Assembly (NCBI GenBank): GCA_043228905.1
Contig: JBHGNT010000010.1
Coordinates: forward strand, 1,674,001-1,738,000
DNA from: Azolla caroliniana
Lineage: Eukaryota; Plantae; Polypodiophyta
DNA length: 64,000 bases
Direction: 5' to 3'
This document shows, in pieces, positions 25,870 to 61,465 of the stretch (within the stretch, counting starts at the first letter, position 1; each line of letters starts with the position of its first letter). The position numbers and the translations under genes were made by a program. Below the pieces are notes generated by a model. That model saw nothing but the letters and a program-made list of their open reading frames with translations, was not told the DNA's origin and ran no database searches.

Positions 25870-26904
25870 GAAGCATTAACTTGCAATGATTATTTACACC
25901 TGCTCAAAAGTCATGGAGTCATATGTAACGGAAAGCATTACATAAAATCAAACTTATGCTTAATGTGTGCATTCTCCCAAACTGTTCAGGGTTCTTTTCC
26001 TTTGCTGAATGCAAGGGAACCATTAAGTGCAGAAGCAAATGCACTTTGTAGATATTTCTCTCATCAAAAACAAATTCTAAGTTTTGTAGGAGATTCTGTT
26101 TTCCTTTTAAGAGGGAAATGTGACACTATATTCAAAAGCATTTCTATTATTGGACTTCTGTAAGCATGGCAGCATTGAAGTCATAGAAAGGCAACATTGT
26201 TTAATTTTCGAAAGTCATAATTTTAGTTTGATGTGACAAACTCCAAAGGAGCAAGACTTACAAGATTGAAATTAGACATTTCAAGAAATATGAAGCATGA
26301 AAAAGATACGCTTACTCCCTACTAAAAGGCAATGTTAAGAAAGTAGAGCTTTTTACAAGAAACGACGGGCTTTAAACCTTTCCATCATACACCATAGTCA
26401 ATGAGTCAGATGCCTTTCCCAACTATGGGTTTGGTTGTACATAAATTGCATAGTGAAGGGGGGTTAAAGGAACAAGTAACATATTTCTATTCAAGGACTT
26501 CATAAGAAAAACCAACAAGATAATTTCCAAAGTGCTAACAAGACAATACCTATTGCATATGCACAAAAGCTGAGGTCCATGAAAATGTATATGTTGGGGG
26601 AGATTTGGACCCAACAAGATATTCGCCATAATGCATTACTTGACCGCAAGTGGACCTTGGGAAGGGTGTGCATGAAAGTATTGCTAGAATTCGGCCCAGA
26701 AAGCTTTGCCACAAAAGTGGATTATGATTGATGCAGATATCTCCTTTCTAATCCGAGGATGACATGAGGCGTGATTCATGTGAGTATGAATGGGGTGGTC
26801 AGGAGGGTGTGTAAACGAAGGAAGCAGTTTTTTTGGACAGACTCAGAGGAAGTGGACATGTCCGCAAGAGTATTGAGCATAATGACAATGAAATTCCTTG
26901 CAAT

Positions 26905-27018
26905 CAATCGGTTTAAATGGTTTCGTGGTTCGGTTTAAGTTTCAAAAAAATTTAACGGTTTTGAATTTGACTCTCTCGAACCGAACCGAAACCAAACCGA
27001 ACCGTTGCCAATTGTTAG
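26905..27018. mobile_element. End fragment of a CCGAA/GGTTC-rich dispersed repeat (probable non-autonomous DNA transposon), same family as 60990-61465
   Basis: It shares TTAAATGGTTTCGTGGTTCGGTT and the terminal AACCGAACC(G/A)TTGCCAATTGTTA with 61355-61465. No TSD or second end was found. Confidence 0.6.
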
Positions 27019-27191
27019 TTGTTTCTCACATTATACATACACACACACACACACCCAAATACTTCAAGAAAACTCTTCTCTTCTCATTTCATTTCCTTCT
27101 TCTTCTTCTTCTTCTTCTTCTCATTTCATTTTCCTTCTCCTTCCTTCATTCTCTGTTGAAAGTCTCACCAGAAAGACAAAAGCTCTCGGCT

Positions 27192-30100
27192 ATGGCGGAG
27201 GAGGACCCCCCCACACACACCAAAACTTCGTTAGAGACCATCGAGAGCCCTGACTCCACAGGGAGCAACTACAAGGTACTACTCTCTTCGTCTTTGTCTT
27301 TGTCTTCTTCACCATCTCCATCGCCATCGATAGGTCATTATTATTCCCCACCCACCGCCTACAGACCTCTGAGGGCTCCTGCAGTTCATCCGAGTATGGT
27401 TCTTTCTACTCCTCACGCCTCTTTAATGCCTGTTCCTCAACCCCTCCCCGTTCCTCTTTCTCTCCCTCCCTATTCCTTTCAAGTACCTAAGAAATGCATA
27501 AACAGCCCCCAAGATATAGAGAAATTCCATTTCTCCGAGGGTGGAAAACACTTCTTAGGCTTCGTAGCTGGGCTGAACCAGTCTATAAAAGGTCACCAGA
27601 TCTCTGATTATTGCTCAGAATCTTCTGTTATTCGAGGTTTGATTCAGATTCTGGAATATATGAGCGCTTGGGTAGATGAGATTCCTCCTCTTCAGCAACC
27701 CGCCAGATATGGAAATATTGCTTTCCGAGATTGGCAAAGAAGATTGCAAGAAGAAGGACCTTCTCTTATGCTAAAACTTCTTCCTAAGGACATTGAATCA
27801 TCGGTCATTGAAATTTTCCCTTATTTTTCAGATAGCTTTGGTAATGCAACCAGAATAGATTATGGAACTGGCCATGAGACCAATTTCGCTGCTTGGCTGT
27901 TTCTATTAGCTAGACTTGGTCTTGTTAAAGAAGATGATTATCACGCGTTAGTTGCTAGAGTGTTTGTTAAGTATCTTGATTTGATGAGAAAGATTCAAAC
28001 TACTTATTGGCTTGAACCAGCTGGTTCTCATGGTGTTTGGGGATTAGATGATTATCACTTCTTGCCCTTTATCTTTGGTTCAGCCCAGCTTATAGACCAT
28101 AAGTATATGAAGCCGAAGTCCATTCACAATGAGGATATACTTGAGAATTTTTCCAAGGAATTTTTGTATTTGGGTTGTGTAAGCTTTGTAAAGAAGATGA
28201 AGAAAGGACATCTTGCAGAACACTCTCCGATGATTGATGATATCTCAGCTGTGGCTTCATGGAATAAGGTTAACAGTGGTATGTTGAAAATGTATAAAGC
28301 TGAAGTGCTTGAGAAGGTTCCCATCATGCAACATTTCCTCTTCGGCTCACTAATCCGCTGGTAAGTTCTCTACAAAAAAAAGACGTTTTTGGTAGCCTTG
28401 GATAATTATTTGTTCTATTTCTTATGTTTTTTGATCGTTTCAATGTTTCAAGTTATCTTTAACTCTTTAACTATCAGTTATTACTGGATGGACATCGATC
28501 CAGATAACAAAGAAACATGCAGAGAATTGAGAAATAATAGTAGCGTTTGGAATGTGGATGCTTTAATTTTATTGCCTTCAAATGAATTTAAATAGAGCAT
28601 CCTGTTGTTTCAATCATAAAATAGCAAACCACTCAGTAGGATATCCCTAAATAGTAAAATGGCTTACATGAATAAGACATGTCAGATCTTTGAACATCAG
28701 AATGTGTGTATGTTCTCACATTCACCTGAACACTTTCCTATTATTACAATTATTTACAAACGTTTTCTATAAAATCCTGAACAATATATTCACATTGCAT
28801 AACTATTTAAATGCGTCAAAACCTAAATCATATTTGTAGAAGAAGCTTAGACTAGTATGGCGTATCTCTCTTTAACTTACCAGCGCATATTATTTTATTT
28901 CTTCATACCATGCTACATAATATTGCCACTCTTCTGGGCCTCAAAGCTACTGAAGGTACCATCGTTAGGATCATTAGTGTCTCATTACTTGGGGATGAGT
29001 ATCTTTACGTTGATAGGTCCTTACAGAAGAGTGTTGTTCTGTGAGAGATGTGACGCTGCCCTGACATGGTATCCAATCCTGTGTGTGTACATCATTTTGA
29101 AAATACTCAAAGACTGATGTTTCAATGTCCTTGATTGCATATATTTCCCTCACTAGAAACAAGATTGCCCAGTTCCCACGTGGTTAATTATTACGCTTTT
29201 ATTAGAATTCGTTTGTGGTTAATTATTACCCTTTTATTTATATTGCATGAGATTATTGAATGAGTAGCTAGATGAACACTGATTTAAAGCAAATTGTTCT
29301 AAATTGTGCATTAACATCTTTGTCGACTGTATATTGGAGGGAGTCTTGCAAGGTCTTCAGTGTTGACATCTGTTCTTATTTCAATGTTAAAGTGTGTCTG
29401 CCTCTTAAGGATGGTAATACAAAATATGGATGTTTCTCTATAGCTGGACATTGTAGCACATTTTCACTAATATGCCATCCCTTACCAATGCTCTAATCAT
29501 TAGAAATATCGTTGATTGACATGTTATTCATGGAAAAATCCTCCTATACCAGGACCAGAGAAATGGATATGTTCACAATGCTAATGCTTGGAATAACATA
29601 GCCATTCCAATTTATTTTATTCCTAGTCTTGTTGGCTTTAGCCACAATACAGCTTGCATTATTCATCCTGAATATGTATGTCAGAAGGTGAGGTTATACA
29701 AAATATTGAATAATAAGGGCGTGCATCCCTGATGCTTAATATATTATGGTACATGGTGGAGTATATGACATAACATCAGTCTTTAGATCTGTTTCACACC
29801 TGATGGGGCTAATACCTTGAACACTTAAGCGCTATGTGATGCCATAACGTCCTTGATCTACTCATATCTGTCTCTCAGCCCTTCCAGCCCCACGACAGAG
29901 GGATCCTCTCGCATTTCTCAGCCGTCGGGGGGCTCATGAAGATGCATATAAATGTTCTTTGGATGACATTTCATACCATAGTTTTTCTATAAGCTCAGGC
30001 AAGTAGAAAGACTTACAAGTTTGTATAGTCCCTTGTTACTTGGCAAGAACACAGAGGTCTCTTTCCACCTCTTGGATGACTTCTCTTCTATATCTGTCTT

Positions 30101-32120: not shown

Positions 32121-33268
32121 TTGTGAGAATCTTATAGTAAGGTCACTTTGGTGAAAATACACAATGATACTAATTGCATGTGATAAGCACTACAATGGTG
32201 TTGCAACTAATTGAATGTTGTTGTCCCATAGGCAAAGCCACCTATTGATTGACTAGATAGCTTTCAGTTGTTGTAATCAACAAAATTGCCAGCACAATAC
32301 TCCCCTTGAACTTCCATAGGTGTGAATATCCCGTCTATGAAGAAATCCCCATTATCTCAAAAACAAAAAAGGCAAACATTTCTTAGTTCAAGACAAGCTA
32401 CCTTAACAAATACGCCAAATTTAAGAAATGTAACCCAAATTATGATGAACAACTAGAGATCATGCGAAGTTGTTAGAGCTAGTGCACAATCGATTAAATT
32501 CTCAATTTCAACATTTATCAGTAAAAGTCTTGAACACCAAGAGTCACTACTCAACTCCACGTAGGTCATACGCTTTACTCTAGCGACAATAAAAAGAAAC
32601 CCATCCATCTCTGTACTCCCAAGTAAGATGCTTTCTCCAAAGATAGATACAAAGCCATAGTCGGGAAGACTTGGAGGCTGGAGTCGCTGCGATCGAGGTG
32701 GTGCGACTCATCCGAGTCTGGGATGGAGGTGGTGTGGCGTAAACACAACTAGTCGAACTAGCCTTCCACCAGTTTAGTGTTACATACCAAGGGTCAGTCA
32801 GCTTCGAATTTCCCGAACAGGAACAAGCAGAGAAAGGAGTGAAATGTGGCCGCCCCGTTCGGTTCTCGCAAGGCATCTATTTGCAAAAGACTCTCTTCTC
32901 TTTTCTTCTCTCTTCTTCTTCTCTCTTCTTCTTCTCTTTTTCATCATGTGTGAATGAAGTGTTGAAGTTATTAGTTGACCTTTTGTTGCGTCTTTAGAGT
33001 ATGGAAGGGACACAAACAAACAAACAGAGACAGAGACAGAAACAGAGTATCATATAAACAAACACATCTGAGACTGAAACTCAGAGAGAAACAGAGCATC
33101 ATATAAACTACCCATTTGAACTAAAAACAGAGTATCAAAAGCAAATCCTCCCTTGTCTCTCGCATTGAAGAGATCCCTCCGCACAGAGGCAGTGACAGAG
33201 GCACAGGCACAGGCACAGGCACAGAGAAGAAGCAGAGAGGGGTGCAGAAGGACAAAGAAAAATACTAC

Positions 33269-36200
33269 ATGGCTTGTCGAAGATTAGGCCCCCACCTGTT
33301 TAAGACGAATCGTCAAATTCTCTCTGATCAGATCCGAGCCGACCCTGGCTTCCCTCGGAGATCCATCACATACATGCCACGTCCTGGCGACGGATCTCCT
33401 CGTGCCGTTACCCTCATCCCCGGAGATGGCATCGGACCTCTTGTCACGGATGCAGTTGTCCAGGTAATGAAAGCTATGCATGCTCCTCTCTATTTCGAAA
33501 CATACGAGGTGAGTGGGAAGATGAATAGTGTCCCTCAAGAGGTTCTTGACTCTATCAAGAAGAATAAGGTCTGCTTGAAAGGAGGTTTGGCTACCCCTGT
33601 TGGTGGTGGTGTGAGCTCCCTGAATGTTCAGATAAGGAAAGAACTCGATCTTTATGCTTCCCTTGTTCATTGCTTCAATCTACCTGGACTCGAAACTCGA
33701 CATCATGATGTTGATATCGTTGTTATAAGAGAGAATACGGAGGGTGAATACTCTGGACTTGAACATGAAGTCGTATCTGGTGTTGTTGAAAGCCTTAAGG
33801 TACACATCTATTACTTTCCGCCGAACTTTATTGACCTGTACAATTTTTGTATGCTCAGACACTTATGCCATCATCTTTTAATGTAGTAGTGCAGAACAAG
33901 TACATTCATTTATTTTAATATAGTAGTGAAGAGCAACACTATTGTAATGCCTGTTATTGAAAGAATTAATGTAACTCTGAGTTCTGACATATTTCTTCAT
34001 ACTTTTGATGCTTGTATCTGAGTGTGTTAATAGTTTACCTGTGCATCATCCAAAGAATATCTGCTTCAATTACAATTGTGCAATTGTCAAAATAATATTG
34101 TGAGACAATTACAAGATATGCTATTGAAAGCTGAAAGGATATATTCAGTTCCTATATCTGCTACCTACTTTTGATGCATATACATGAGGATCTTCTGTTA
34201 GTTCTGCATCATCGATTGGTTTTACTGAATATATTTAATAATAGTGAAATCACAAGAAAAGTTAATGTTGTGAGCAAAATTTAAAGAGGATTTACTTGGA
34301 TGCTCATACGAACAATGCAAAGAAAGATAAAATTTCCAGAAGGATTTACTGGTGTGAAAGTTTGGGGCCTTGTAGCCCAGCTGCTTTTCAAGATACTAAA
34401 AATTTATTTGAAGCTTATTCCTGGTTTAGTGATTAAAAGAAAGAAGTCTCAGGAAAATCTTTCAATGTTGTCTAATAAAAAAACACGATTCAAAAAGCTA
34501 GGAATAGTACAATATCTGAGTCATCTAACTAAATATTTAGTTCATTTATCAGATCTGAGTATGGATGAATATCGGAAATTTCAACATTTTGGTTTAAATA
34601 TTTACAACATTTTGGTTTAACTAACGTATTGTAATAACAAAATTTTCATATCTCTGAATCATATTGGGATTAGAAACTTGCACATATGAAAAAAAAATCG
34701 AATTATAAAAGTTAACCTGGTCAAAGTCTGCACAATAGTTAACCTGAGATGAATTCTGGCTCCATGCCAAATGCACATGTTGTAATATCTGATATGCACA
34801 TCAATGCTGATCCCTGATAATTCATATTTAACTAGATACCTATATCAGCATATTTCCAGCTGTCTTCTTATTGCTTTATCTTGCTAGGTGATCACAAAGT
34901 TCTGCTCCGAACGGATTGCCAAGTATGCGTTTGAGTATGCCTATTTAAACAATCGAAAGACAGTTACAGCTGTACACAAGGCCAACATCATGAAGCTAGC
35001 TGATGGTCTTTTCTTGGAATCATGTCGGGAAGTGGCGAAGAAGTATCCAGGGATAAAGTACAACGAGATGATTGTGGATAACTGTTCTATGCAGCTTGTA
35101 TCACGTCCACAGCAGTTTGATGTGATGGTACGTTCCTTGCTGTGCCCTGTATGTGTGTGTATGTATGTATGTATGTATGTATGTGGGGTATGTGTGTGTA
35201 GACATCATTTCTTAAATTTAGCTCTCTATAAGGTACCAAAAAATGTAGAATCAGTCATTTAATTGTCAGATTGTGCTTTTGTCAAGTTATTTCCTGCATT
35301 GAGAGGAGGGTGGTTAGAGTCAAAAGGATTTATACCATTTATTGATTCTGGGCTGACAAAGGTTATTGCATTCCTGATGGCAAAATTTATTATATTATTC
35401 AATCAAAGCTCTCATAAGTCAAATATAAGATATCCACATTCTTGCATATTCCTATCCACATTTCCTTGATTGCATTTTGATAGTCCGTATGGTCTCATGA
35501 TCCTTATCAATTACATCTCTAACCCTGCAGCATTGTTTCACGTAGAGAGATATGTGCATATCACACACTGCTTATAAATAGTAGACTTATTTATGCATAC
35601 ATGTCGAAAGTGAACTAACATATTGAAATTATACATTTAAATAGTTATTGTTAGTCTCTTTTAAGTGGGTCATTTTTCCTTCGGTTCATGGTAATTGGCT
35701 TATTGTGAACTATTACCAGGTTACACCGAACTTGTATGGGAACCTTGTAGCAAACATTGCAGCTGGTATAGCTGGTGGAACTGGGGTAATGCCTGGAGGT
35801 AAGTGCTCTAAATCTATGGCTATCATGTGTAATCTGCATTACATATAGCTATGGCTATCATGTGTAATCTGCATTATATATAGCTATGGCATGCACATTT
35901 TCTATCGCAGCTTTGTTTACTGATGTTCCTATTTATCCATTGGTTTACCTTTTGAAGGTCTATATATTCTTCAGTTTAGGTTTAATTGCCTCATATTTTT
36001 TGAGTTGTGATGTTTTGGTGTTAAATTGCTGGTCTTTTATTTTCCACCTTTATGAATATCTCATCATTATATATGAAAATTGTGTGAATTGGCAGGTAAT
36101 GTAGGTGCAGAACACGCTGTTTTTGAGCAGGGTGCTTCAGGTGGTAATGTTGGAAATGAGAAGCTGGTTGTACAGAAGCGAGCAAACCCTATAGCATTGC

Positions 36201-51356: not shown

Positions 51357-51812
51357 TGTTCGAGACATGAACTAATGTAAGCATTAGATAAGGATAGAAT
51401 ATAGATCTAGATAGAAAGGAGAGACAGAAAGAAGGGTGTTGATCCACCCGACCACCCCTGAGCGAAGGGATCAAGATAGACTCGAGCCTCGATCAGCGTC
51501 CCATACCACCGATGTGGCATCGAGTCATACCTGGTGCTGGCGCGCTCGCTACAAGAGTTGACCCACCACAAGACAGAGTCTCGACGTAGTCAACAAGATG
51601 ATCAAATGAGGGTAGCTAGGCCTCTTATTTATAGCGATACCCAAGGCCCCCAGGCAAGTTCACACTTGGCCTAATGGGTTGTCTCAATCCCGAGGATTTA
51701 AAAGTAATCCTCCCCTTCTTTACACTCTCGTTTAACCCTCACACTTATCCACGTGTATAGAATACTACGGTAAATTCTCACCACGGGATATTATATGGTC
51801 ATGCCTGTAACA
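51357..51812 (-). repeat. 3' LTR of the chromovirus
   Basis: TGTTCGAGAC...CCTGTAACA, roughly 20 differences from the other LTR by eye. The PPT AAAGAGGGGGAG lies on the minus strand at 51815-51826. Confidence 0.96.
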
Positions 51813-54800
51813 TACTCCCCCTCTTTAAAACATTGCACTGTTGCAATGGAAAGTTAGGGAAGTGAGTTCTGAGAGTATTTTTGCGTTCCCATGTGGCATC
51901 TTTTATTGATTTATCCATCCATTTTATTTTAAATTCTCGGATTTCTTTAGTACGTAATTGTTTTTTTTTAACATCGAGAATTCTTTCTGGTACATGTGGT
52001 TTAGAAGATAATTCTTCAGAAGTAACCAGAGTTTCAGTTGTAACTGTATTGTCGCCAGAACCTAGAAGTTCTTTTAGATGACTCACATGAAAAACTGGAT
52101 GAATTTCAATGCCATCAGGAAGAGCGAGATGATAGGCTGATGACCCAATGCGTTTGAGGACTGTAAAAGGTCCACAAAACCGTGGGGCTAACTTAGCGCA
52201 CTTACCATTAGACAATGTCTTAGAATTATGAGGTACACGTAAAAATACCTTCTGTCTAGGGTTGAATACACGAGGTTGCCTATTATGATCGGCATAAAAA
52301 CGCGCTCTATCTTGAGCTGTTTTTATATTATCTCGTGCAATATGCAACATATCTTGCATATCTCGAAGAAAGTTTTGCGTACTTCACAACTCATCATGAT
52401 GTATATTAACATCAATCAGGGCTCGTGGCTGAAAACCATACATCAACATAAAAGGACTATATCCCGTCGACGTATGCTTGGAGCTGTTATAAGTAAATTC
52501 CAAATTTGGGAGATAACGTTCCCATTTTGTTGGTTTTGCACCAACGTATGCTTGAAGCATGTCCCCAATAATTTGATTTACTCATTCTGTTTGTCCATCG
52601 GATTGAGGATGATCCGTGGAACTCATGCTCAACGTAGTTTCTAACTTCTTAAAGACTTGTGTCCAGAAGTCACTATGAAACTTTGGATCTTGATCACTCA
52701 CGATATCCATCGGTAACCCATAAAAACGAAATAATTAGTCAACGAATTGTTAAGCCAATTCAGGAGCTGTTAGCGTGGTTTTAGCAGCAATAAATCTGGC
52801 CATTTTAGTTAGTCTATCAACCACAACCCAGATTGCATCATGGCCTTTTTGGGTGCGAGGAAGGCTAACAATAAAATCCATGGATATACTTTCCCACTTA
52901 TTTTTGGGAATGTCCAAGGGATGTAAAAGTCCTGCGGCTTTAAGTCGCTCGGCTTTGTTAACCTGACAACCCAGGCAAGTTCACACTTGCAAAATAACTG
53001 TCATCAGGATACTTTCCTCGAAGGTGATCATAAAGATCTAATGATATTTCAGTGAAGCTAAGCATGTTAACTTCACGGATGCGACTTAGTGCATCTGTGA
53101 CAGTGTTCATGGAATCTTTACGATATTGTATGGAAAAATCAAAGTCCTGGATGAGATCAGCCCATCGTGCCTTACGACCTTTCAGGTCTTGTTGGTCACA
53201 AAAATATTTAAAGGACTCGTGGTCCGTAGTTACCACAAAGTGATTTCCATAAAGGTAATGGCGCCATGTTTTGAGCGCATGTATAACTGCAAATAATTCC
53301 TTTTCTTGAATGGTATACCGACATTGAGCAGAATCAAGTTTCTTACTCTCGAATGTTATTGGTTTACCATCTTGATATAAGACAACACCTATAGCATAAT
53401 CGCTTGCATCGGTTTCAACCTCAAAAGGTTTTGAAGGATCAGGTAAAAGAAGAGAAGGAGCCTTGCAAACCAGGTCCTTGAGTTCCTTAAAGGCGAGGTC
53501 TAGTGTAGCATTCCACACAATAGGTTTTGTAGACTTACGTGTTTGACCTTTTAGAAGATCAATAAACGACGTCGTCAATTGGGAGTAATTACGAAGAGAT
53601 TTTAGCAAAAACCTGACAAAACCAAGGAATGATCGAACTTCTCAAATATTCCAAAGAGTGGGCCAAAGCTTGATTTTCTCGATGTGAGAAGGATCAATTT
53701 CAAGTCTTCGTTCGGTTATGAGATGTCCAAGATAAGTAATTGATTTCTTAAAGAACTCACATTTTGAGATCTTAGTGCAAAACTGTTTGTCACGCAATGT
53801 TTGTAAAACAAAGGAGACATGTTTAGCATGTTCTTGTAATGTATGGCTATAAACTAAAATATCATCCAAGAAAATAACGACAAATTTTCCAAGTTGTTCT
53901 TGGAAAATGTCATTCATTTCTTGTTGAAATGTAGCCGGAGCATTGGTCAAACCAAAAGGCATAACCAATAACTCATAATGGCCATAGCGCGTACGAAATG
54001 CCGTTTTAGGAACATCGTCCTCACTTATACGTATTTGATGGTAGCTAGTATGGAGATCAAGTTTCGTAAAATACCGAGCTCCCTGGAGATGGTCAATTAG
54101 ATCGTTAGCTCGGGGCAATGGATACGAATTCTTGATCGTCACTTTATTCAAGCGTCGGTAATTAATACACATACGCCATGTGCCCTCTTTCTTTTTAACC
54201 AAGAGAAATGGTGCACCCCACGGAGATTTACTATAACGTATATAACCCATTCGTAAATAGTCCTTGAGTTGCTTAGATATCTCATCCTCTTTGGATTGAC
54301 TTAAGCGATAAGGAGGTATAATTATTGGTGCAACACCAAGTACAATATCTATACGATGGTCTATATTACGTTTAGGAGGTAACCCATCAGGTAGTTCACT
54401 CGGAAAAACATCACGAAAATCATTTAAGATTTCATCAAGTTGTTGTTGTTCAAAATATGTTAATTGAACCGAGACATTATCGATATTGTAAACGTGAATG
54501 TCCGGATCAAGTACACAATAAAATAGAGTAGAACAAGACAACTCGGATATTGATGGACACGAGGAAACAATCAAGAGGGATTGTTTTTTGACACATTGAA
54601 TAAAATGAGTACAATCTGTCAGTACAAAGGAAATGGAATGATGAACCCAATTGATTGATAAAGAAGAGTTTTTATTATAGAACCAGGGATAACCCAGTAT
54701 TACATCAGTGGTACAAAGATTCATTACATGGAAGTCTACTTCCTCTATATAAGTGTCAATAGAAATTCCTAATGAATGAATCGCCCCGTTGATGTATTGT

Positions 54801-56071
54801 ACTCTTCCATCAGCCAAGTGCACCCTATAGGTGTGATCACTTACGATGGGTTGGATTCTCCATATCTAAACCAAACGATCATTCACAAAGTTGTGTGAGC
54901 TTCCCGAATCAAACAAAAATTGTATGGGAGATCCATTGATATACCCGTTTGCACGTAGTAAATCATTGGGACCCAATACATAGTGAGGGAAAGAACATTG
55001 ACAATTACTTAAATGATGTGTATAGACCTGAAGGACATTAGGAATCTGACCTTTATGGTCTGCAACTTTAGCTTTGTTGTCGTGCTCCTTCCATTGGAGC
55101 TTTCGACATTGTTCTTTTGTATGACCCTTCTTTTTGCAGAATGCGCAAAAAGGATGTTGTCGCTTACAATCGCGATCCATGAATTCGTTGGGTGTCTTGT
55201 GTTTCCCAGTGAATTGCGACTGCTTAGTCCCGGGCGCTTCGTTGGGTTTGTTGTGGTCCTTCGAAGTGCGTTGATAGCGAAGGACTATTTCAACAGCCTC
55301 TTCGAAGGATTTTGGATCCTTATCGTGCACTATCCAGTGATAGTCTGAATTGGGGATGCCATTGACAAAACAAGCTATTAACCAATTGTCCCCTTCTAGA
55401 CCCGATTTATGGATTTGGGTTCTAGCATGGTGGACATAGTCTTCTAGCGAGGAAAACTTCCTACTAGAGAGATTCATTAAAGCTTGAGCTGCCTCGGTTC
55501 GTGAGGGAGGTTGTAGAAATTGCCCCTTAAAAACTGTGACAAAATCTGTCTAGGTATCGGGCAATTTCCCCAAAGTACGGAGCCCACGCCACCAGGCGGT
55601 GGCCTTACCCCCTAGTTCTCGGCCGACATATGCAATCTTCGTACTATCTGGCGTGGGATAGAGCTCAAAATGAGACTCCCATCGGCCCAATCACGTATAG
55701 ATTGCTTCTTCGGTTCTTTCCTTTTTTTCTCCCGTAAATGGCTTAACGACAAACGATGGTTCACCCTGTCGCTTATCAGGTCTATTAGTCTCACGTTGTA
55801 AACTAATGACACGTGCCTCAAGAGAACTTTGAGATTGCCGAAGTTCGGTCATCTGTTGAGCGATGAAACTAAGGTATTGGGTTATTTGCGAAAAGTACAT
55901 CTCAATGGACATTTGTCCAGGAGGATTTCCTTGAGTTCCTTCAGCTTGAGCAGATGACATCAAGTCGTTATTTTGAGCCATTGAATGGTTATTTCTGGCA
56001 AAGAAATAGGATAAGGTCAGACAAATAGTCATAACATCATGTCGTGATGTAAACATATCATGGGCAAACAT
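51799..56071 (-). pseudogene. Disrupted gag-pol polyprotein of the chromovirus
   Basis: Motifs: Gag GKATAWW and zinc knuckle CAFCKKKGHTKEQC, protease LFDSGSSHNF, RT LVMPFGLTNAPATFQ and VVIFLDDILVYS, RNase H VETDASDYAIG, integrase WESISMDFI and KLAPRFCGPF (GPY/F), chromodomain PERILD...FKIKW...DATWE. Several in-frame stops and frameshifts interrupt it. Confidence 0.95.
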
Positions 56072-56870
56072 TAATCGATATCATGATCTCACGTCAATAC
56101 CCCTCTAGACGTATGAGATGAGGTTCAAGATCAGGTTACTATGGTAACACAAAGGTGTTTTAAAAACCATGGGGGTGACAAATGAATGTCTTTCCTTTAT
56201 CTCTATATCGATTTTTTAATGGCGGCTCCCCCAGGCTCAACCATGTATGTTTGCGTCATGAGTAGTTTATACATGAAAAAAATGTTAACAATAAACTATG
56301 TTTCAGTGCCCACATATGTGGTTTCGGCTCTTTAAGTCCTATTACGAGGACCCCGAAGTGCACTTAGACCTTAAGTCTAAACATGTGTTATAGTAATATA
56401 TATCAACAATGTTGCATGGTCTTGATAATATTTGAACTCGAGACCTCGAGAACAAATACATTAAACAGTTGAGCCAACCAAGTAGGTTGCTCTTCTTGAA
56501 TGTTTAACGTTTATTGTTTCATGCGTATAAGAGATATGTGACGCATTTGTCCATATATGTTTTTTTAAAAGAAACATATATGTCAGGAGTCCTTATTTCG
56601 CCCTGATTTACTACAACTATGTTGGTACGTTACCTAACCTCAAGTCTTGTAATTACGATGGCATATGCCAAAGTGCAACCTAATGGTCAAGCCAAATGAG
56701 CCCTCTTTTCGTAGTAGGCCCACGTGGCCCATCACATGGTCACATCATTACGAATGCCTCTCGTAAGAATGATCTCATGGTGGCATTGTATCCATGTATT
56801 GAGGGAGGGATGTTTGATACGTGTGTCATAGGAGCGACCTCACATGAAGTGGGTCAAGCCCTACGTACTC

Positions 56871-57304
56871 TGTTACCAGCCGGCAAAGGAGTCTAGAGTG
56901 GGAAACGGAGAGCTAATTAAGTAGTAGGAATATGGTTGTAATTAAGCTATGAGTGTGGACGGACGGACCGGAATCGGTATGCCGTTCCGGATCCGGACCG
57001 ATCCCGAACAGGTGCGGATGGCACCGTTTTGTAATACAGACCGGAAACCTATTTAAAGGCCCGGATACAATGTAATAGAGAGCGGTTAATTAATGAAAGC
57101 TTAAGCGTTGTTATCTCTCTGTGTTAATTGCCGTTCTGTCTTAATTGTTATATCTTACGCGTGTTATGAAAGACGATCCTAATAAGTAACTTAACTAAGT
57201 CGGATTAAGCGTTGAAGTCTAATCCGGTTGCCGTAACACCCTTTGGTGAAGTGTATCACGTAGACACCCTGTGTTAGGCCATTGTCCGGCCCAAAGAGTT
57301 AACA
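56871..57304 (+). repeat. 5' LTR (copy A1) of the nested element
   Basis: TGTTACCAGCCGGC...AAAGAGTTAACA, with a TATA-like TATTTAAA near 57050. Confidence 0.95.
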
Positions 57305-58296
57305 CAGTTTTTGGCGACCACGATGGGATCCCCTTTTGGAGACAAAGTCGAAGATTAATACGTGGCAGAGACAACAACGACGAAATGTGTGATAATGGTG
57401 ACGATGATGTGCGAGAAATCGAATTTATGATGAGTAGCAAATCGAATCAGTAATGTGCAAGAAATGGCGACCACAATGCGTTGGAAATGGCCATGTTAAC
57501 GAAAAAAAGAAGAAACAATCATAGCGATAACTGGAATGACAAAGATCGACAACAAGAACGATGGCCGGACCGAAGATGAGCGGGACAACAACCGGATAGC
57601 CAGAAAGACATGGTTGTTCGTGCCGAACAACAACGAAGATGGAGACGGCCGGACAATAGTTCGAGCGGTCGGATAGGCCGGAGAGTGACTGGACAGGAGC
57701 AACCGGAGCGGCCGAAGTGGCCAGAGAGCGGTCAGAATGGCCGGACAACTACTGAAGAGCAACCGGACGACGATCGGACGGTGACGGAGACGAGCGAACC
57801 TCGGCCAAAAACAGACGACCAATTGCAAATTGGTCGAACAGGGCTGACAAGGCCGGCGACAGAGACATCTGGAGATGGATTGGACAGACATGGCCAGACG
57901 GGCCAAACAACGGAAAGAGCGGCCAGTATGGCCGTAATAGCCGAACAGTGGCCGGAGTGGCCAAACGGGCTGGATAGACGACCAACCACAACAACCAAAA
58001 CAAAGACAACACAGAGAAAAAAGAGGCAGACATGCAGAAAATAAGAAGAAGAGAGAAGAGAAATGCAAGGAAGAAGAAGAACAGTGAAGGAAGAAAAAGA
58101 AGATGTCATGGAAGAAGAGAAAGGCATGAACAGATAGACACGAAGTGGAAGAAACAGAGACAGAAGAAGAAAGAGAGAGGAGGAAAAGAAGACAGGAAGA
58201 GGAGAAGAAGCAACAGTTAACACCAAGAAGGAGGAAGAAGATGCAGACAACACGCAGGAGAAAACGTAAGAAGACAAACAATAATAATAAAAACTG

Positions 58297-58734
58297 TGTT
58301 AACTCTTCAGGCCGGACAATGGCCTAACACAGGGTGTCTATGTGAGACACTTCACCAAAGGGTGTTACGGCAACCGGATTAGACTTCAACGCTTAATCCG
58401 ACTTTAATAGTTAAGTTACTTATTAGGATCGTCTTTCATAACACGCGTAAGATATAACAATTAAGACAGAACGACAATTAACACAACGAGATAACAACGC
58501 TTAAGCTTTCATTAATTAACCGCTCTCTATTACATTGTATCCGGGCCTTTAAATAGGTGTCCGGTCTGTATTACAAAACGGTGCCATCCGCACCTGTTCG
58601 GGATCGGTCCGGATCCGGAACGGCATACCGATTCTGGTCCGTCCGTCCACACTCATAGCTTAATTACAACCACATTCCTACTACTTAATTAGCTCTCCGT
58701 TTCCCACTCTGGACTCCTTTGCCGGCCGGTAACA
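58297..58734 (-). repeat. Internal inverted LTR copy (A2), 438 bp
   Basis: Reverse complement of A1/A3 over the whole length, with a 4-nt insertion. Confidence 0.95.
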
Positions 58735-59265
58735 CATGGCACACCCGTGGGACAGTACCTTGTACGTCGAATCCACAACCGACCCTTGCTATTCTTCGTC
58801 CAAAATGTCCAGAATGCTTTGTTCGAGAGGCTCCAATGGTTCATCTGGAAGTGGTTGTTGTTGTTGTTGTTGTTGTTGCTCTGTTGTTGTTTGCTGCGGC
58901 GGGTCCGTTGGTGGTTGCTGCGGCTGCTCCTCCGTTTGTGGCTCTGACACCGGCGTCTCCGTCGTTGCTCCCTGCGTCGTAGTGGTCTCCGGTTGACTGG
59001 TTCCCGGCTGGCCCTCAGCCGGCGACGGTTCCTCATCACTAAGGTTAACCGTTGTTGCTTCCCGTGCTTTTTCTTCCCGCAACAACCACCAACGGACTCG
59101 CCGCAGCAAACAGCAACAGAGCAGCAACAACAACAACAACAACAACCACTTCCATATGAACCATTGGAGCCTCTCGAACAAAGCATTCTGGACATTTTGG
59201 ACGAAGAATAGCAAGGGTCGGTTGTGGATTCGACGTCCAAGGTACTGTCCCACGGGCGTGCCATG

Positions 59266-59699
59266 TGTTACCAGCCGGCAAAGGAGTCTAGAGTGGGAAA
59301 CGGAGAGCTAATTAAGTAGTAGGAATATGGTTGTAATTAAGCTATGAGTGTGGACGGACGGACCGGAATCGGTATGCCGTTCCGGATCCGGACCGATCCC
59401 GAACAGGTGCGGATGGCACCGTTTTGTAATACAGACCGGAAACCTATTTAAAGGCTCGGATACAATGTAATAGAGAGCGGTTAATTAATGAAAGCTTAAG
59501 CGTTGTTATCTCTCTGTGTTAATTGCCGTTCTGTCTTAATTGTTATATCTTATGCGTGTTATGAAAGACGATCCTAATAAGTAACTTAACTAAGTTGGAT
59601 TAAGCGTTGAAGTATAATCCGGTTGCCGTAACACCATTTGGTGAAGTGTCTCATGTAGACACCCTGTGTTAGGCCATTGTCCGACCCGAAGAGTTAACA
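59266..59699 (+). repeat. 3' LTR (copy A3) of the nested element
   Basis: 434 bp with 9 substitutions versus A1 by eye, followed by the TSD TACTC. Confidence 0.95.
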
Positions 59700-59994
59700 T
59701 ACTCAACATCATTATGGCTATAGGCATTTCTTTACGTAACGAAATATCGAAGTCACCAACGGGGATTTCGACAATAAAAAATTGTTGAAAAAAGGGATGG
59801 TGACAACGCTATTCTCACAAAAATGTGAGGAGGGCCACCAATATCCTTTCCCCGAAAAGGAAAACATTCGATTTAAAATCATGTAATAACTTATATACAC
59901 ATATGTATATTATCACATATATACGATCAACTACGTATACACGTGACCACATATGCTATATTAAACAAATCCTTATATTTAATAACCAAAAATG

Positions 59995-60205
59995 ATGTAA
60001 TCGAGATATGTAATCGAGGCATATACCTCTATGCACACAAGACATCCAAAAATAAGGGTTAATCGTAATACGCAATTGAGGTATTGACCTCTTACGCATA
60101 CGAGACCAAACGCATATCATTTACAACGAATCGAGGTATTGACCTCATACGCAAACGTAACATATGTTTGTGAACGTAATACGCAATTGAGGTATTAACC
60201 TCGTG
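59995..60205. repeat. Short degenerate repeats (CGTAATACGCAATTGAGGTATT(G/A)ACCTC) in the chromovirus 5' leader
   Basis: Copies lie near 60063, 60130 and 60175, with partial copies near 60000. Confidence 0.7.
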
Positions 60206-60488
60206 CACATACGACACTCATCACATATTCAATATACATCCTCATACACATATCTAAACGTTTCATACAGCCAATGAATTACCACTACAACATCATTGAA
60301 TTAATGAAAAAATCTACATATTAACCATACACGTGATTAGATGGGAGAAGAAAAAATAGACAAAAAAAAACAAGAAAGATTACCGAAGTTCCTTTGTTGA
60401 TCCTTGTCTACATGAAGGCCGGTCGCACGTAGATCGATCGCCATCAATCAAGAACACAAAAGACAACAAAAGAAACACTAGAAAATGA

Positions 60489-60500
60489 GCTCTGATACCA
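60489..60500 (-). promoter_or_regulatory. Primer-binding site complementary to initiator tRNA-Met
   Basis: Minus-strand TGGTATCAGAGC lies 2 nt inside the 5' LTR boundary. This is the standard plant tRNA-iMet PBS. Confidence 0.93.
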
Positions 60501-60502
60501 AC

Positions 60503-60958
60503 TGTTAGAGACATGAACTAATGTAAGCATTAGATAAGGATAGAATATAGATCTAGATAGAAAGGAGAGACAGAAAGAAGGGTGTTGATCCACTCGACCA
60601 CCCCCGAGCGAAGGGATCGAGACGAACTCGAGCCTCGATCGGCGTCCCATACCACTGTCGTGGCGTCGAGTTTGTACCTAGTGCTGGCGTGCTCGCTACA
60701 AGAGTTGACCCACCACAAGACAGAGTCTCGACGTAGTCAACAAGATGATCAAATGAGGGTAGCTAGGCCTCTTATTTATAGCGATCCCAAGGCCCCCATG
60801 CAAGTTCACACTTGGTCTAATGGGTTGTCTCAATCCCGAGGATTTAAAAGTAATCCTCCCCTTCTTTACACTCTCGTTTAACCCTCACACTTATCCACGT
60901 GTATAGAATACTACGGTAAATTCTCACCACGGGATATTATATGGTCATGCCCGTAACA
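60503..60958 (-). repeat. 5' LTR of the chromovirus
   Basis: TGTTAGAGAC...CCCGTAACA, followed on the minus strand by the PBS TGGTATCAGAGC. Confidence 0.96.
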
Positions 60959-60989: not shown

Positions 60990-61465
60990 CTAAACCGAAC
61001 CGTGAAACCGTAGCTTAACGCTTTTAACGATTTGATGGTTTTTAAATATTTTTTATTTTTTTAAAAAATTTAAAATTTGTAAACAACATTTTCCCTTTTA
61101 AGCTTAATTCTCACATTTTAGGAAAAATCTTTAAAATTTTGAAAAATAAAAAATTATAAAATTTGAATTTTGACCTAAGTTGAAGACCGAAACCAAACCA
61201 CGAAACCGCGGTTGAATAGTTTAACGTATTGGATTTTTACCAAACAATTCGATTAAATGGTTTCGTGGTTTGGTTCGGTGACCTAAGTTGAAAACCGAAA
61301 CCAAACCACGAAACCGCGGTTGAATAGTTTAACGGATTGCATTTTTTCCAAATAGTTCGATTAAATGGTTTCATGGTTCGGTTCGGTTCAATTTTCAACG
61401 GTTCGATTTTAAACTGGTTCGGTTTGGACGCTCTTAAACCGAACCGAACCATTGCCAATTGTTAC
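60990..61465. mobile_element. CCGAA/GGTTC-rich repeat, probable non-autonomous DNA-transposon end, with an internal ~108-bp tandem duplication
   Basis: Many AACCG/CGGTT motifs in both orientations. TGACCTAAGTTGAA...AACCGCGGTTGAATAGTTTAACG occurs at ~61171 and ~61278. It ends TTGCCAATTGTTA like the copy at 27018. Confidence 0.6.

What the first reader, a model, noticed from the sequence alone, without database searches (positions are those of the whole stretch)
56871..59699. LTR retroelement with three LTRs in direct-inverted-direct order, bounded by a single TSD
Seen: a 2829-bp insertion flanked by TACTC/TACTC, with 434-bp TG...CA direct terminal repeats and a complete third copy of the same repeat on the opposite strand in the middle (58297-58734). 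It has no gag or pol. Established: TRIM/LARD elements have two direct LTRs, and tandem-array TRIMs add LTRs in the same orientation. DIRS elements have inverted repeats but use a tyrosine recombinase and lack this integrase-type 5-bp TSD. The middle copy has no TSD of its own (flanks AACTG and CATGG), so it is not a nested solo LTR. Inference: this is either a one-off rearrangement or a non-autonomous family that moves with a built-in antisense LTR. I do not know of the latter as a described architecture.
Basis: partly seen in the sequence, partly recalled or inferred. Interest (0 to 1): 0.82.

Follow-up and report, generated by a model that had tools for sequence, protein, structure and literature searches.

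The report
Misjoined retrotransposon copy with inverted LTR
This plant jumping-gene insertion really carries three end-repeats, the middle one upside down, but the middle block matches the start of a half-finished DNA copy of the element and was likely spliced in by a one-off copying error, so it is likely a dead-end accident and not a new mobile design.

Summary
Observation confirmed: LTRs at 56871-57304 (+), 58297-58734 (-) and 59266-59699 (+), with a TACTC target-site duplication; the empty site occurs in 3 of 4 runs. The inverted piece is larger than reported. Block 58289-59079 is the reverse complement of an ORF tail, the 3' region, the LTR and the spacer up to the primer site, joined at 3-5-nt microhomologies. 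That is the make-up of the first 791 nt of a minus-strand cDNA. No contig bridges the left joint in 4 of 4 runs, while the internal sequence is present in several copies that leave the window's sequence there. The right joint was barely tested. Most likely this is one reverse-transcription template-switch product, using a sibling's minus strand (Fisher p=0.033), integrated once inside an older chromovirus. A small private family is not excluded, because the assembly's own genome was unavailable. The parent family has no polypurine tract and carries a tRNA-Arg-like 3' end before the 3' LTR. This scan has already reported that lineage many times in this genome, and similar fold-back accidents on other DNA. 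If transcribed, the copy would form a 627-bp hairpin against its abundant family (untested).

The parts
56866..56870 (.). Left target-site duplication TACTC
   Evidence: Sequence; empty-site joint skipping 2834 nt in X1, X5, X7
56871..57304 (+). 5' LTR (LTR1), 434 bp, TG...CA; TATA-like box at 57050-57057 by eye
   Evidence: K2P to LTR3 0.021
57305..57311 (+). 7-nt spacer between LTR and primer-binding site
57312..57329 (+). PBS-like motif (TGG start); family-wide by loose ends; its tRNA not identified here (tRNA-Arg type recalled only)
   Evidence: Loose ends before 58289 show the same first letters of the PBS in 4 of 4 runs; no tRNA gene among 49 pattern hits
57330..58288 (+). Internal segment I1, purine-rich and apparently non-coding, from a low-copy subfamily
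   Evidence: Depth about 50-100-fold below the LTR; no Pfam domain; weak similarity to relative L124
58289..58293 (.). Joint J1: A-run microhomology where I1 meets the primer-side end of the inverted block
   Evidence: not bridged by any contig in 4 runs
58289..59079 (-). Inverted block, 791 bp = ORF tail + 3' region + tRNA-like end + LTR + primer-side spacer; matches the 5' part of a minus-strand cDNA after first strand transfer
   Evidence: interpretation inferred from the Ty3 scheme
58297..58734 (-). Middle LTR copy, 438 bp, 10 private substitutions and a 4-nt insertion
58737..58753 (-). Copy of the tRNA-3'-end-like motif (reads as a second PBS on the + strand)
58789..59079 (-). C-terminal 96 codons of a family 3' ORF, running across the spacer into arm A
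   Evidence: Local alignment to L123: score 135, 0 of 1000 shuffles; spacer alone 70, 3 of 1000; plus-strand frames not significant
58924..59076 (-). 153-nt loop between the arms; high-copy family sequence
   Evidence: Depth 1.1e5 in X1, like the LTR
59077..59079 (.). Joint J2: CCG microhomology
   Evidence: X4 shows 4 contigs leaving the window's sequence behind 59079
59077..59265 (+). Arm B, 189-bp 3' region, 7 differences from arm A
59247..59263 (+). tRNA-Arg-like 3' end (...CCA) 2 nt before the 3' LTR, where a PPT normally lies
   Evidence: Purine share 0.53 in the 15 nt before the LTR; same motif with one extra base is the 3' end of an ARAGORN tRNA-Arg(TCT) in L127, 1 of 2 hits; upstream 30 nt conserved in 4 relatives with sequence there
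59266..59699 (+). 3' LTR (LTR3), 434 bp
59700..59704 (.). Right target-site duplication TACTC
51357..60958 (-). Host chromovirus (Ty3/gypsy with RT, RNase H, SH3 and chromodomain; tRNA-Met-type PBS and a normal PPT by eye) into whose 5' region the element is inserted
   Evidence: LTR K2P 0.043

Best explanation
This is a single 2829-bp LTR insertion whose middle 791 bp match the start of a minus-strand cDNA of its own family, likely copied in by two template switches during reverse transcription and then likely integrated once as a dead-end copy. Inferred steps: (1) tRNA-primed minus-strand synthesis made LTR3, the tRNA-like end and arm B, then stalled 189 nt upstream of the LTR. (2) The 3' end paired by 3 nt (CCG, J2) with a second, sibling minus strand in the same particle and copied it back to its 5' end at the tRNA/DNA boundary, giving spacer, arm A, the middle LTR and the primer-side spacer. 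(3) The T-run at that end paired with an A-run in the RNA (J1) and synthesis went on through I1 to the PBS, skipping the rest of the interior. (4) Normal plus-strand transfer gave two direct LTRs with intact ends, and integrase supplied in trans made the 5-bp TSD inside an older chromovirus. Shown: structure, junction positions, TSD, nesting order, native orientation of the spacer, no bridged J1 in four runs. Inferred: the RT origin, the second template, the single occurrence. If transcribed from LTR1, the RNA is predicted to fold into a 627-bp hairpin, which would hinder re-copying and could feed small RNAs against the family.
For: The block has 3'-region sequence before the LTR and the primer-side spacer after it, and stops within the 5 nt at the tRNA/DNA boundary; in a two-LTR genomic element no LTR has both flanks, in a minus strand after first transfer it does (Ty3 scheme, PMC5371799 passages). 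The spacer is in frame and homologous to L123 only with the middle copy, so J2 is a true strand switch with 3-nt microhomology. One TSD and near-identical outer LTRs are the two marks Sabot and Schulman use for template-switch complexes (PMC1950507, whole text). Second template: 5 of 10 private substitutions of the middle copy start from A/T, against 0 of 9 in LTR1+LTR3 (Fisher two-sided p=0.033); at LTR position 8 the middle copy has the base found in 3 of 4 relatives with this LTR type; K2P middle-LTR3 0.041 and arm-arm 0.038 against LTR1-LTR3 0.021. Single occurrence: no listed piece bridges J1 in X1, X5, X7 or X10; in X7 one contig holding all the depth at 58254 (134.3) leaves the window at 58273 and runs 93 letters into non-LTR sequence, and depth at 58266-58277 (89.6 = 134.3 x 8/12) leaves no other cover; X5 has the same contig (41.6 of 66.5); in X1 two pieces stop at 58293 and depth stays 481 with no successor laid. 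J1 pattern: 0 hits in metagenome contigs. Nesting order fits ages (host 0.043, nested 0.021).
Against: The assembly's genome is not held and the best run holds only 0.42 of the words, so the locus itself was not seen in independent reads; contigs drop rare variants, and X10 has no cover next to J1 at all, so it is a weak test. The second-template signal is modest: private counts 2/7/10 are not significantly uneven (chi-square p=0.076), positions 8 and 24 are methylation-prone sites that could decay twice, position 24 aligns only across an indel, and L123 has the outer-LTR base at position 8. The short 153-nt loop suits an intramolecular fold-back better. A captured cDNA at a later DNA break would leave nearly the same sequence.
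Confidence: 0.5

Rival explanations
1. Post-insertion capture: a normal two-LTR element suffered a double-strand break and deletion, and the gap was patched with a sibling's minus-strand cDNA in inverted orientation.
For: Explains the same block boundaries and the second-template alleles. In yeast, Ty1 minus-strand intermediates are inserted at breaks, with the 3' LTR region as hotspot (PMC11372161 passages).
Against: The end of the deletion (189 nt upstream of LTR3) and the end of the cDNA (345 nt upstream) would be independent, yet lie 156 nt apart in family coordinates. The middle copy has 5 C/G-origin private changes against 2 and 7 for the outer LTRs, so it shows no sign of being younger.
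Confidence: 0.2
2. Intramolecular snap-back: one stalled minus strand folded back at CCG/CGG and copied itself into a 627-bp hairpin, which was then copied again and joined to I1.
For: Short loop (153 nt), 3-nt microhomology and loop orientation fit a self-primed hairpin exactly; arm differences look symmetrical by outgroup bases read by eye.
Against: All three LTRs would be identical at birth, but LTR1 and LTR3 share bases that the middle copy lacks, with a different mutation spectrum (p=0.033), and middle-LTR3 distance is twice LTR1-LTR3.
Confidence: 0.17
3. A mobile non-autonomous family that moves with a built-in antisense LTR and second primer site.
For: All cis signals are kept: PBS, tRNA-like end before LTR3, both TG...CA ends. 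The source genome could not be searched.
Against: 0 of 4 runs bridge J1 although I1 is present at several times single-copy-like depth and leaves the window's sequence there; 0 hits for J1 in metagenome contigs; the RNA is predicted to be a near-perfect hairpin (-1223.6 kcal/mol) that would bury U3-R; no look-alike window in the scan's index (a weak test).
Confidence: 0.06
4. Assembly or library artefact (fold-back chimeric read at a high-copy repeat).
For: J1 not seen in any run; inverted chimeras with short microhomology are a known library artefact (own knowledge).
Against: Artefact arms would be identical; these differ by 3.8-4.1%, by substitutions mostly at CG/CHG sites on both arms, and the middle copy resembles LTR1 on one flank and LTR3 on the other.
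Confidence: 0.04
5. Templated repair or recombination from a genomic tandem (three-direct-LTR) element, whose inner LTR also has both flanks.
For: Tandem complexes are common in plants, and L124 shows two tRNA-like-end + LTR starts in one contig.
Against: A genomic template gives no reason to stop within 8 nt of the LTR end, at the primer boundary.
Confidence: 0.03

Closest known systems
Template-switch complex LTR insertions of Triticeae, rice and maize (Sabot and Schulman 2007, PMC1950507, whole text read)
   Same: Three LTRs under one 5-bp TSD, outer LTRs most alike, proposed origin from two co-packaged templates; rare (2 of 400 insertions in their Triticeae set).
   Different: There the third LTR is direct, the switch is between R regions and both interiors are complete; here the third LTR is inverted, the switches are at 3-5-nt microhomologies, the donor is likely a minus-strand DNA and the interior is largely lost.
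[quoted passage not shown] 2016, PMC4717578, section 8 and passages read; figure not seen)
   Same: Non-coding, more than two LTRs, one TSD, opposite orientations occur.
   Different: This element is 2829 bp (their limit is 1500 bp), has one known copy, and has a direct-inverted-direct order with a cDNA-shaped block.
Defective HIV-1 proviruses with inversions (PMC6235535, passages read)
   Same: Integrated copies with an internal inverted segment; 6% of 531 sequences in the study it cites.
   Different: The passages do not describe an extra LTR or the mechanism; retrovirus, not a plant retrotransposon.
Ty1 cDNA intermediates captured at DNA breaks (PMC11372161, passages read)
   Same: Minus-strand intermediates around the 3' LTR are inserted as fragments.
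   Different: Insertion into an induced break by end joining, not inside a copy of the same family under an integrase TSD.
Mu killer of maize (PMC1563492, passages read)
   Same: Inverted duplication of part of a transposon that would give a long hairpin RNA against its family.
   Different: Muk is a DNA-transposon derivative with shown dsRNA and silencing; here transcription and silencing are untested.
Plant non-chromovirus (OTA: Athila/Tat) Ty3/gypsy (Neumann et al. 2019, PMC6317226, passages read)
   Same: 5-bp TSD, tRNA-type PBS, extra 3' ORF; earlier notes of this scan place the PPT-less parent lineage near here.
   Different: No PPT; no pol in this copy, so its lineage was not tested by phylogeny here.

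Membership tests
LTR retrotransposon insertion | Two direct TG...CA LTRs and a 4-6-bp TSD | tested here: met
LTR retrotransposon insertion | PBS just after the 5' LTR | tested here: inconclusive
   TGG-start motif 7 nt after the LTR, shared by the family, but no matching tRNA gene found
LTR retrotransposon insertion | PPT just before the 3' LTR | tested here: not met
   Purine share 0.53; tRNA-Arg-like 3' end instead
TRIM / TA-TRIM (Gao et al. criteria) | Size under 1500 bp | tested here: not met
   2829 bp; criterion
TRIM / TA-TRIM (Gao et al. criteria) | At least two complete copies with different TSDs | tested here: not met
   J1 bridged in 0 of 4 runs; source genome not searchable, so this is a partial test
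TRIM / TA-TRIM (Gao et al. criteria) | No retrotransposon proteins | tested here: met
LARD | Large (over 4 kb, recalled) non-coding conserved interior, multi-copy | tested here: not met
   2829 bp; threshold recalled, from no call
Template-switch complex insertion (Sabot and Schulman) | Internal third LTR, flanking TSD, outer LTRs most similar | tested here: met
Template-switch complex insertion (Sabot and Schulman) | Two complete core sequences, third LTR in direct orientation | tested here: not met
   Middle LTR inverted, interior deleted
DIRS / tyrosine-recombinase elements | Inverted or split terminal repeats, no integrase-type TSD (recalled) | tested here: not met
   Direct termini and a 5-bp TSD
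Nested solo LTR | Own TSD and no attached internal sequence | tested here: not met
   No TSD; 345 nt of 3' region and 8 nt of primer-side spacer attached
OTA (Athila/Tat) Ty3/gypsy | RT-RH-INT phylogeny, aRH presence | not testable with these tools
   No pol in the element; no full-length parent recovered (genome not held)
Killer-type hairpin locus (Mu killer-like) | Inverted duplication able to form long dsRNA | tested here: met
   Predicted fold
Killer-type hairpin locus (Mu killer-like) | Transcribed, yields siRNA, silences in trans | not tested
   No RNA run was laid

The most novel reading that the evidence does not exclude
In this PPT-less lineage both strands depend on tRNA sites, so the inverted LTR with its own primer site lets a second tRNA make plus-strand strong-stop-like DNA straight from the RNA; the direct-inverted-direct element is then a small, self-propagating family private to this genome, a replication design not found in my searches. 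A milder novel reading (about 0.2) is that this one copy is a natural hairpin 'killer' locus for a family with thousands of copies.
Probability: 0.06. Interest if true: 0.85.

Novelty: new variant of a known kind. Interest (0 to 1): 0.3.

Why it matters
As a single accident it matters little: it is a clean fossil of a minus-strand intermediate and shows that integrase accepts such products as long as the two ends are intact. It adds an inverted form to the known three-LTR template-switch complexes. It would matter more if the 627-bp hairpin were transcribed, since that would be a route by which a very abundant retrotransposon family makes its own silencing trigger, or if the joints proved multi-copy. 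The more surprising feature, a tRNA-like end in place of the PPT, belongs to the parent lineage and not to this rearrangement; the scan has noted it many times in this genome.

Tried and rejected
Whole-genome search: no genome held. Self-BLAST of the window: no fourth LTR copy. No tRNA gene in the window. Rfam on 56800-59800: 2 chance snoRNA hits far below gathering score. Viral-contig scan with a 15-mer gave 120+ matches; none aligned to the window at E<1e-6, so chance. J2 pattern in genome contigs: 0 hits, uninformative because the collection is prokaryotic. PBS1 pattern: 49 matches, 0 tRNA genes. Folding of the 51 nt around the tRNA-like end was not better than shuffles (z 0.22 and 0.68). 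Spacer-versus-L123 at DNA level was not significant in either orientation; only the protein-level test was. Mucin/Piezo/WBP-1 Pfam hits to the minus ORF are below cut-off and low-complexity. No RNA holder listed. Sequence look-ups in earlier findings gave no look-alike. Literature: 'LTR retrotransposon'+'inverted LTR'+'template switch' 0 papers; 'provirus'+'internal inversion'+'reverse transcription'+'template switching' 0; searches listed no paper whose title or abstract start describes a direct-inverted-direct three-LTR element (listings only); motif search listed only unrelated papers among 25 of 123; the motifs were not in the 17,418 characters of supplements held for PMC6317226, and its large element table may not be among them. 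Rejected: nested solo LTR, DIRS, TRIM (see membership).

Full report
Observation. The element spans 56871-59699 with TACTC on both sides. LTR1 (56871-57304) and LTR3 (59266-59699) are 434 bp and differ by 9 substitutions; a complete third copy lies on the minus strand at 58297-58734. Contigs that skip exactly 2834 nt, the element plus one TSD, occur in runs X1, X5 and X7, 3 of the 4 laid; they are empty sites in the host family. The host is a minus-strand chromovirus with LTRs at 51357-51812 and 60503-60958. Its LTRs are twice as diverged (K2P 0.043) as the nested ones (0.021), as nesting requires.

The inverted repeat is 627 bp: 58297-58923 pairs with 59077-59699, so it includes 189 bp upstream of the LTR. 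On its other side the middle copy shares with LTR1 the 8 nt that lead into the PBS (58289-58296). The 153-nt loop is high-copy family sequence and belongs to the middle copy: on the minus strand it encodes the tail of a 3' ORF that aligns with relative L123 (spacer alone score 70, 3 of 1000 shuffles; with arm A 135, 0 of 1000; the three plus frames not significant). So the rearrangement is one inverted block, 58289-59079, with two joints: J1 in a 5-nt A-run and J2 at CCG. X4 shows 4 contigs leaving the window's sequence behind 59079, which fixes J2's microhomology at 3 nt.

What the block is. It reads ORF tail, 3' region, LTR, primer-side spacer. In an ordinary two-LTR element no LTR has both flanks. 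A minus-strand cDNA after the first strand transfer has exactly this make-up, and its 5' end is at the tRNA/DNA boundary, where the block stops (scheme from PMC5371799, passages; the match is my inference). This points to a reverse-transcription intermediate as donor.

One template or two. Private substitutions are 2 (LTR1), 7 (LTR3) and 10 plus a 4-nt insertion (middle). All 9 outer-LTR changes start from C or G; 5 of the 10 middle changes start from A or T (Fisher p=0.033). At position 8 the middle copy has the base of L122, L124 and L125, while L123 has the other. This suggests LTR1 and LTR3 share changes from their own template and the middle copy came from a sibling. The support is modest: the counts alone are not significantly uneven (p=0.076), and two of the sites are methylation-prone. 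A self fold-back stays possible, and so does capture of a cDNA at a later break, which is known for Ty1 (PMC11372161, passages).

Family or one-off. No genome is held, so I used public runs. The best holds 0.42 of the words. In one search the LTR, arms and loop have depth near 1e5 in X1, and I1 about 1000-2500, against 40-90 for single long pieces; depth is no copy number, but I1 is clearly a minor multi-copy sequence. In the focused lay of 57990-58345 (X1, X5, X7, X10) no listed piece bridges J1. In X7 a single contig with all the depth at 58254 leaves the window at 58273 and runs 93 letters into non-LTR sequence. X5 has the same contig for 41.6 of 66.5; its remaining 24.9 reaches at least 58277 but yields no piece long enough to be listed. 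In X1 two pieces end at 58293 and depth stays at 481, so no successor was laid along the window. X10 has no cover next to J1 and tests little. The J1 pattern had 0 hits in metagenome contigs. Thus most I1-bearing copies are not built this way. Contigs drop rare variants and these runs are not shown to be the assembly's individual, so a small private family is not excluded, and J2 had no focused test.

Artefact. The arms differ by 3.8-4.1%, mostly by transitions at CG/CHG sites on both arms. A chimeric fold-back read would give identical arms (own knowledge). I rate this at 0.04, though no read confirmed the locus.

Parent lineage. There is no PPT before LTR3 (purine share 0.53, whereas the host has one). 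In its place is a motif ending in CCA, 2 nt before the LTR, which with one extra base is the 3' end of an ARAGORN-called tRNA-Arg(TCT) in L127 (1 of 2 hits; not a host tRNA). Five metagenome loci carry the motif before two LTR types. I saw this before consulting earlier notes; searches then showed that the scan has reported this PPT-less lineage many times in this genome, along with other one-off inverted copies here (e1-10621211, e1-10619871) and in other genomes, some with recurrent joints (e1-9919579, e1-9828399). Those notes are unreviewed and are not counted as support. tRNA priming of the plus strand was not tested here.

Consequence. The region 58289-59699 is predicted to fold into one long stem (-1223.6 kcal/mol). 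If transcribed it would work like Mu killer (PMC1563492, passages); no RNA was laid, so this is untested.

Known relatives. Three LTRs under one TSD by template switching are described with a direct inner LTR (PMC1950507, whole text). A TA-TRIM of two inverted TRIMs under one TSD is described in maize (PMC4717578, section 8). Inversions make up 6% of defective HIV-1 proviruses in one set (PMC6235535, passages). Searches did not turn up a direct-inverted-direct three-LTR element; the library lacks most subscription papers, and supplements I could not see may bear on this. It is not a TRIM, LARD, DIRS element or nested solo LTR by the features tested.

Verdict. Real feature; most likely a single template-switch accident in a PPT-less plant Ty3/gypsy-like family. 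New variant of a known kind, interest 0.3. Chance that it is a mobile design about 0.06.

Noticed in passing
window 59220-59265 and 58735-58780; L121-L125: No PPT: a tRNA-Arg(TCT)-like 3' end sits 2 nt before the 3' LTR, with conserved upstream sequence, in front of two unrelated LTR types (L121 versus L122-L125). The 19-nt core was the search pattern, so only the upstream conservation is independent. Already noted by this scan in this genome.
   Followed up: partly
L124 (1318 nt): One contig holds two tRNA-like-end + LTR starts from two different LTR families in the same orientation, with an I1-like purine-rich stretch between them: a chimera or nest. It raises the possibility that I1 comes from a second family.
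   Followed up: partly
window 57322-57340: Sequence after the first 12 letters of the PBS differs from the family's commonest continuation seen as loose ends, so the element's 5' interior belongs to a minor subfamily or was joined at the PBS.
   Followed up: no
window 51357-60958 (-): Older chromovirus with LTRs 95.4% identical, TSD CATCC, broken pol, very high copy in the runs; host of the insertion.
   Followed up: partly
window 60064-60228 and 61171-61386: Short tandem repeats: about 55-bp units in the host's 5' region and two 108-bp units outside it.
   Followed up: no
window 26892-28364 (+) and 33125-35262 (+): Plant genes for a PP2A activator (PTPA) and an isocitrate dehydrogenase subunit; host taxon not determined here (earlier notes say fern or moss).
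   Followed up: no
L123 543-1475: Decayed 3' ORF of the family, coiled-coil-like by eye, ending 40-50 nt before the tRNA-like end; not scanned against families.
   Followed up: no
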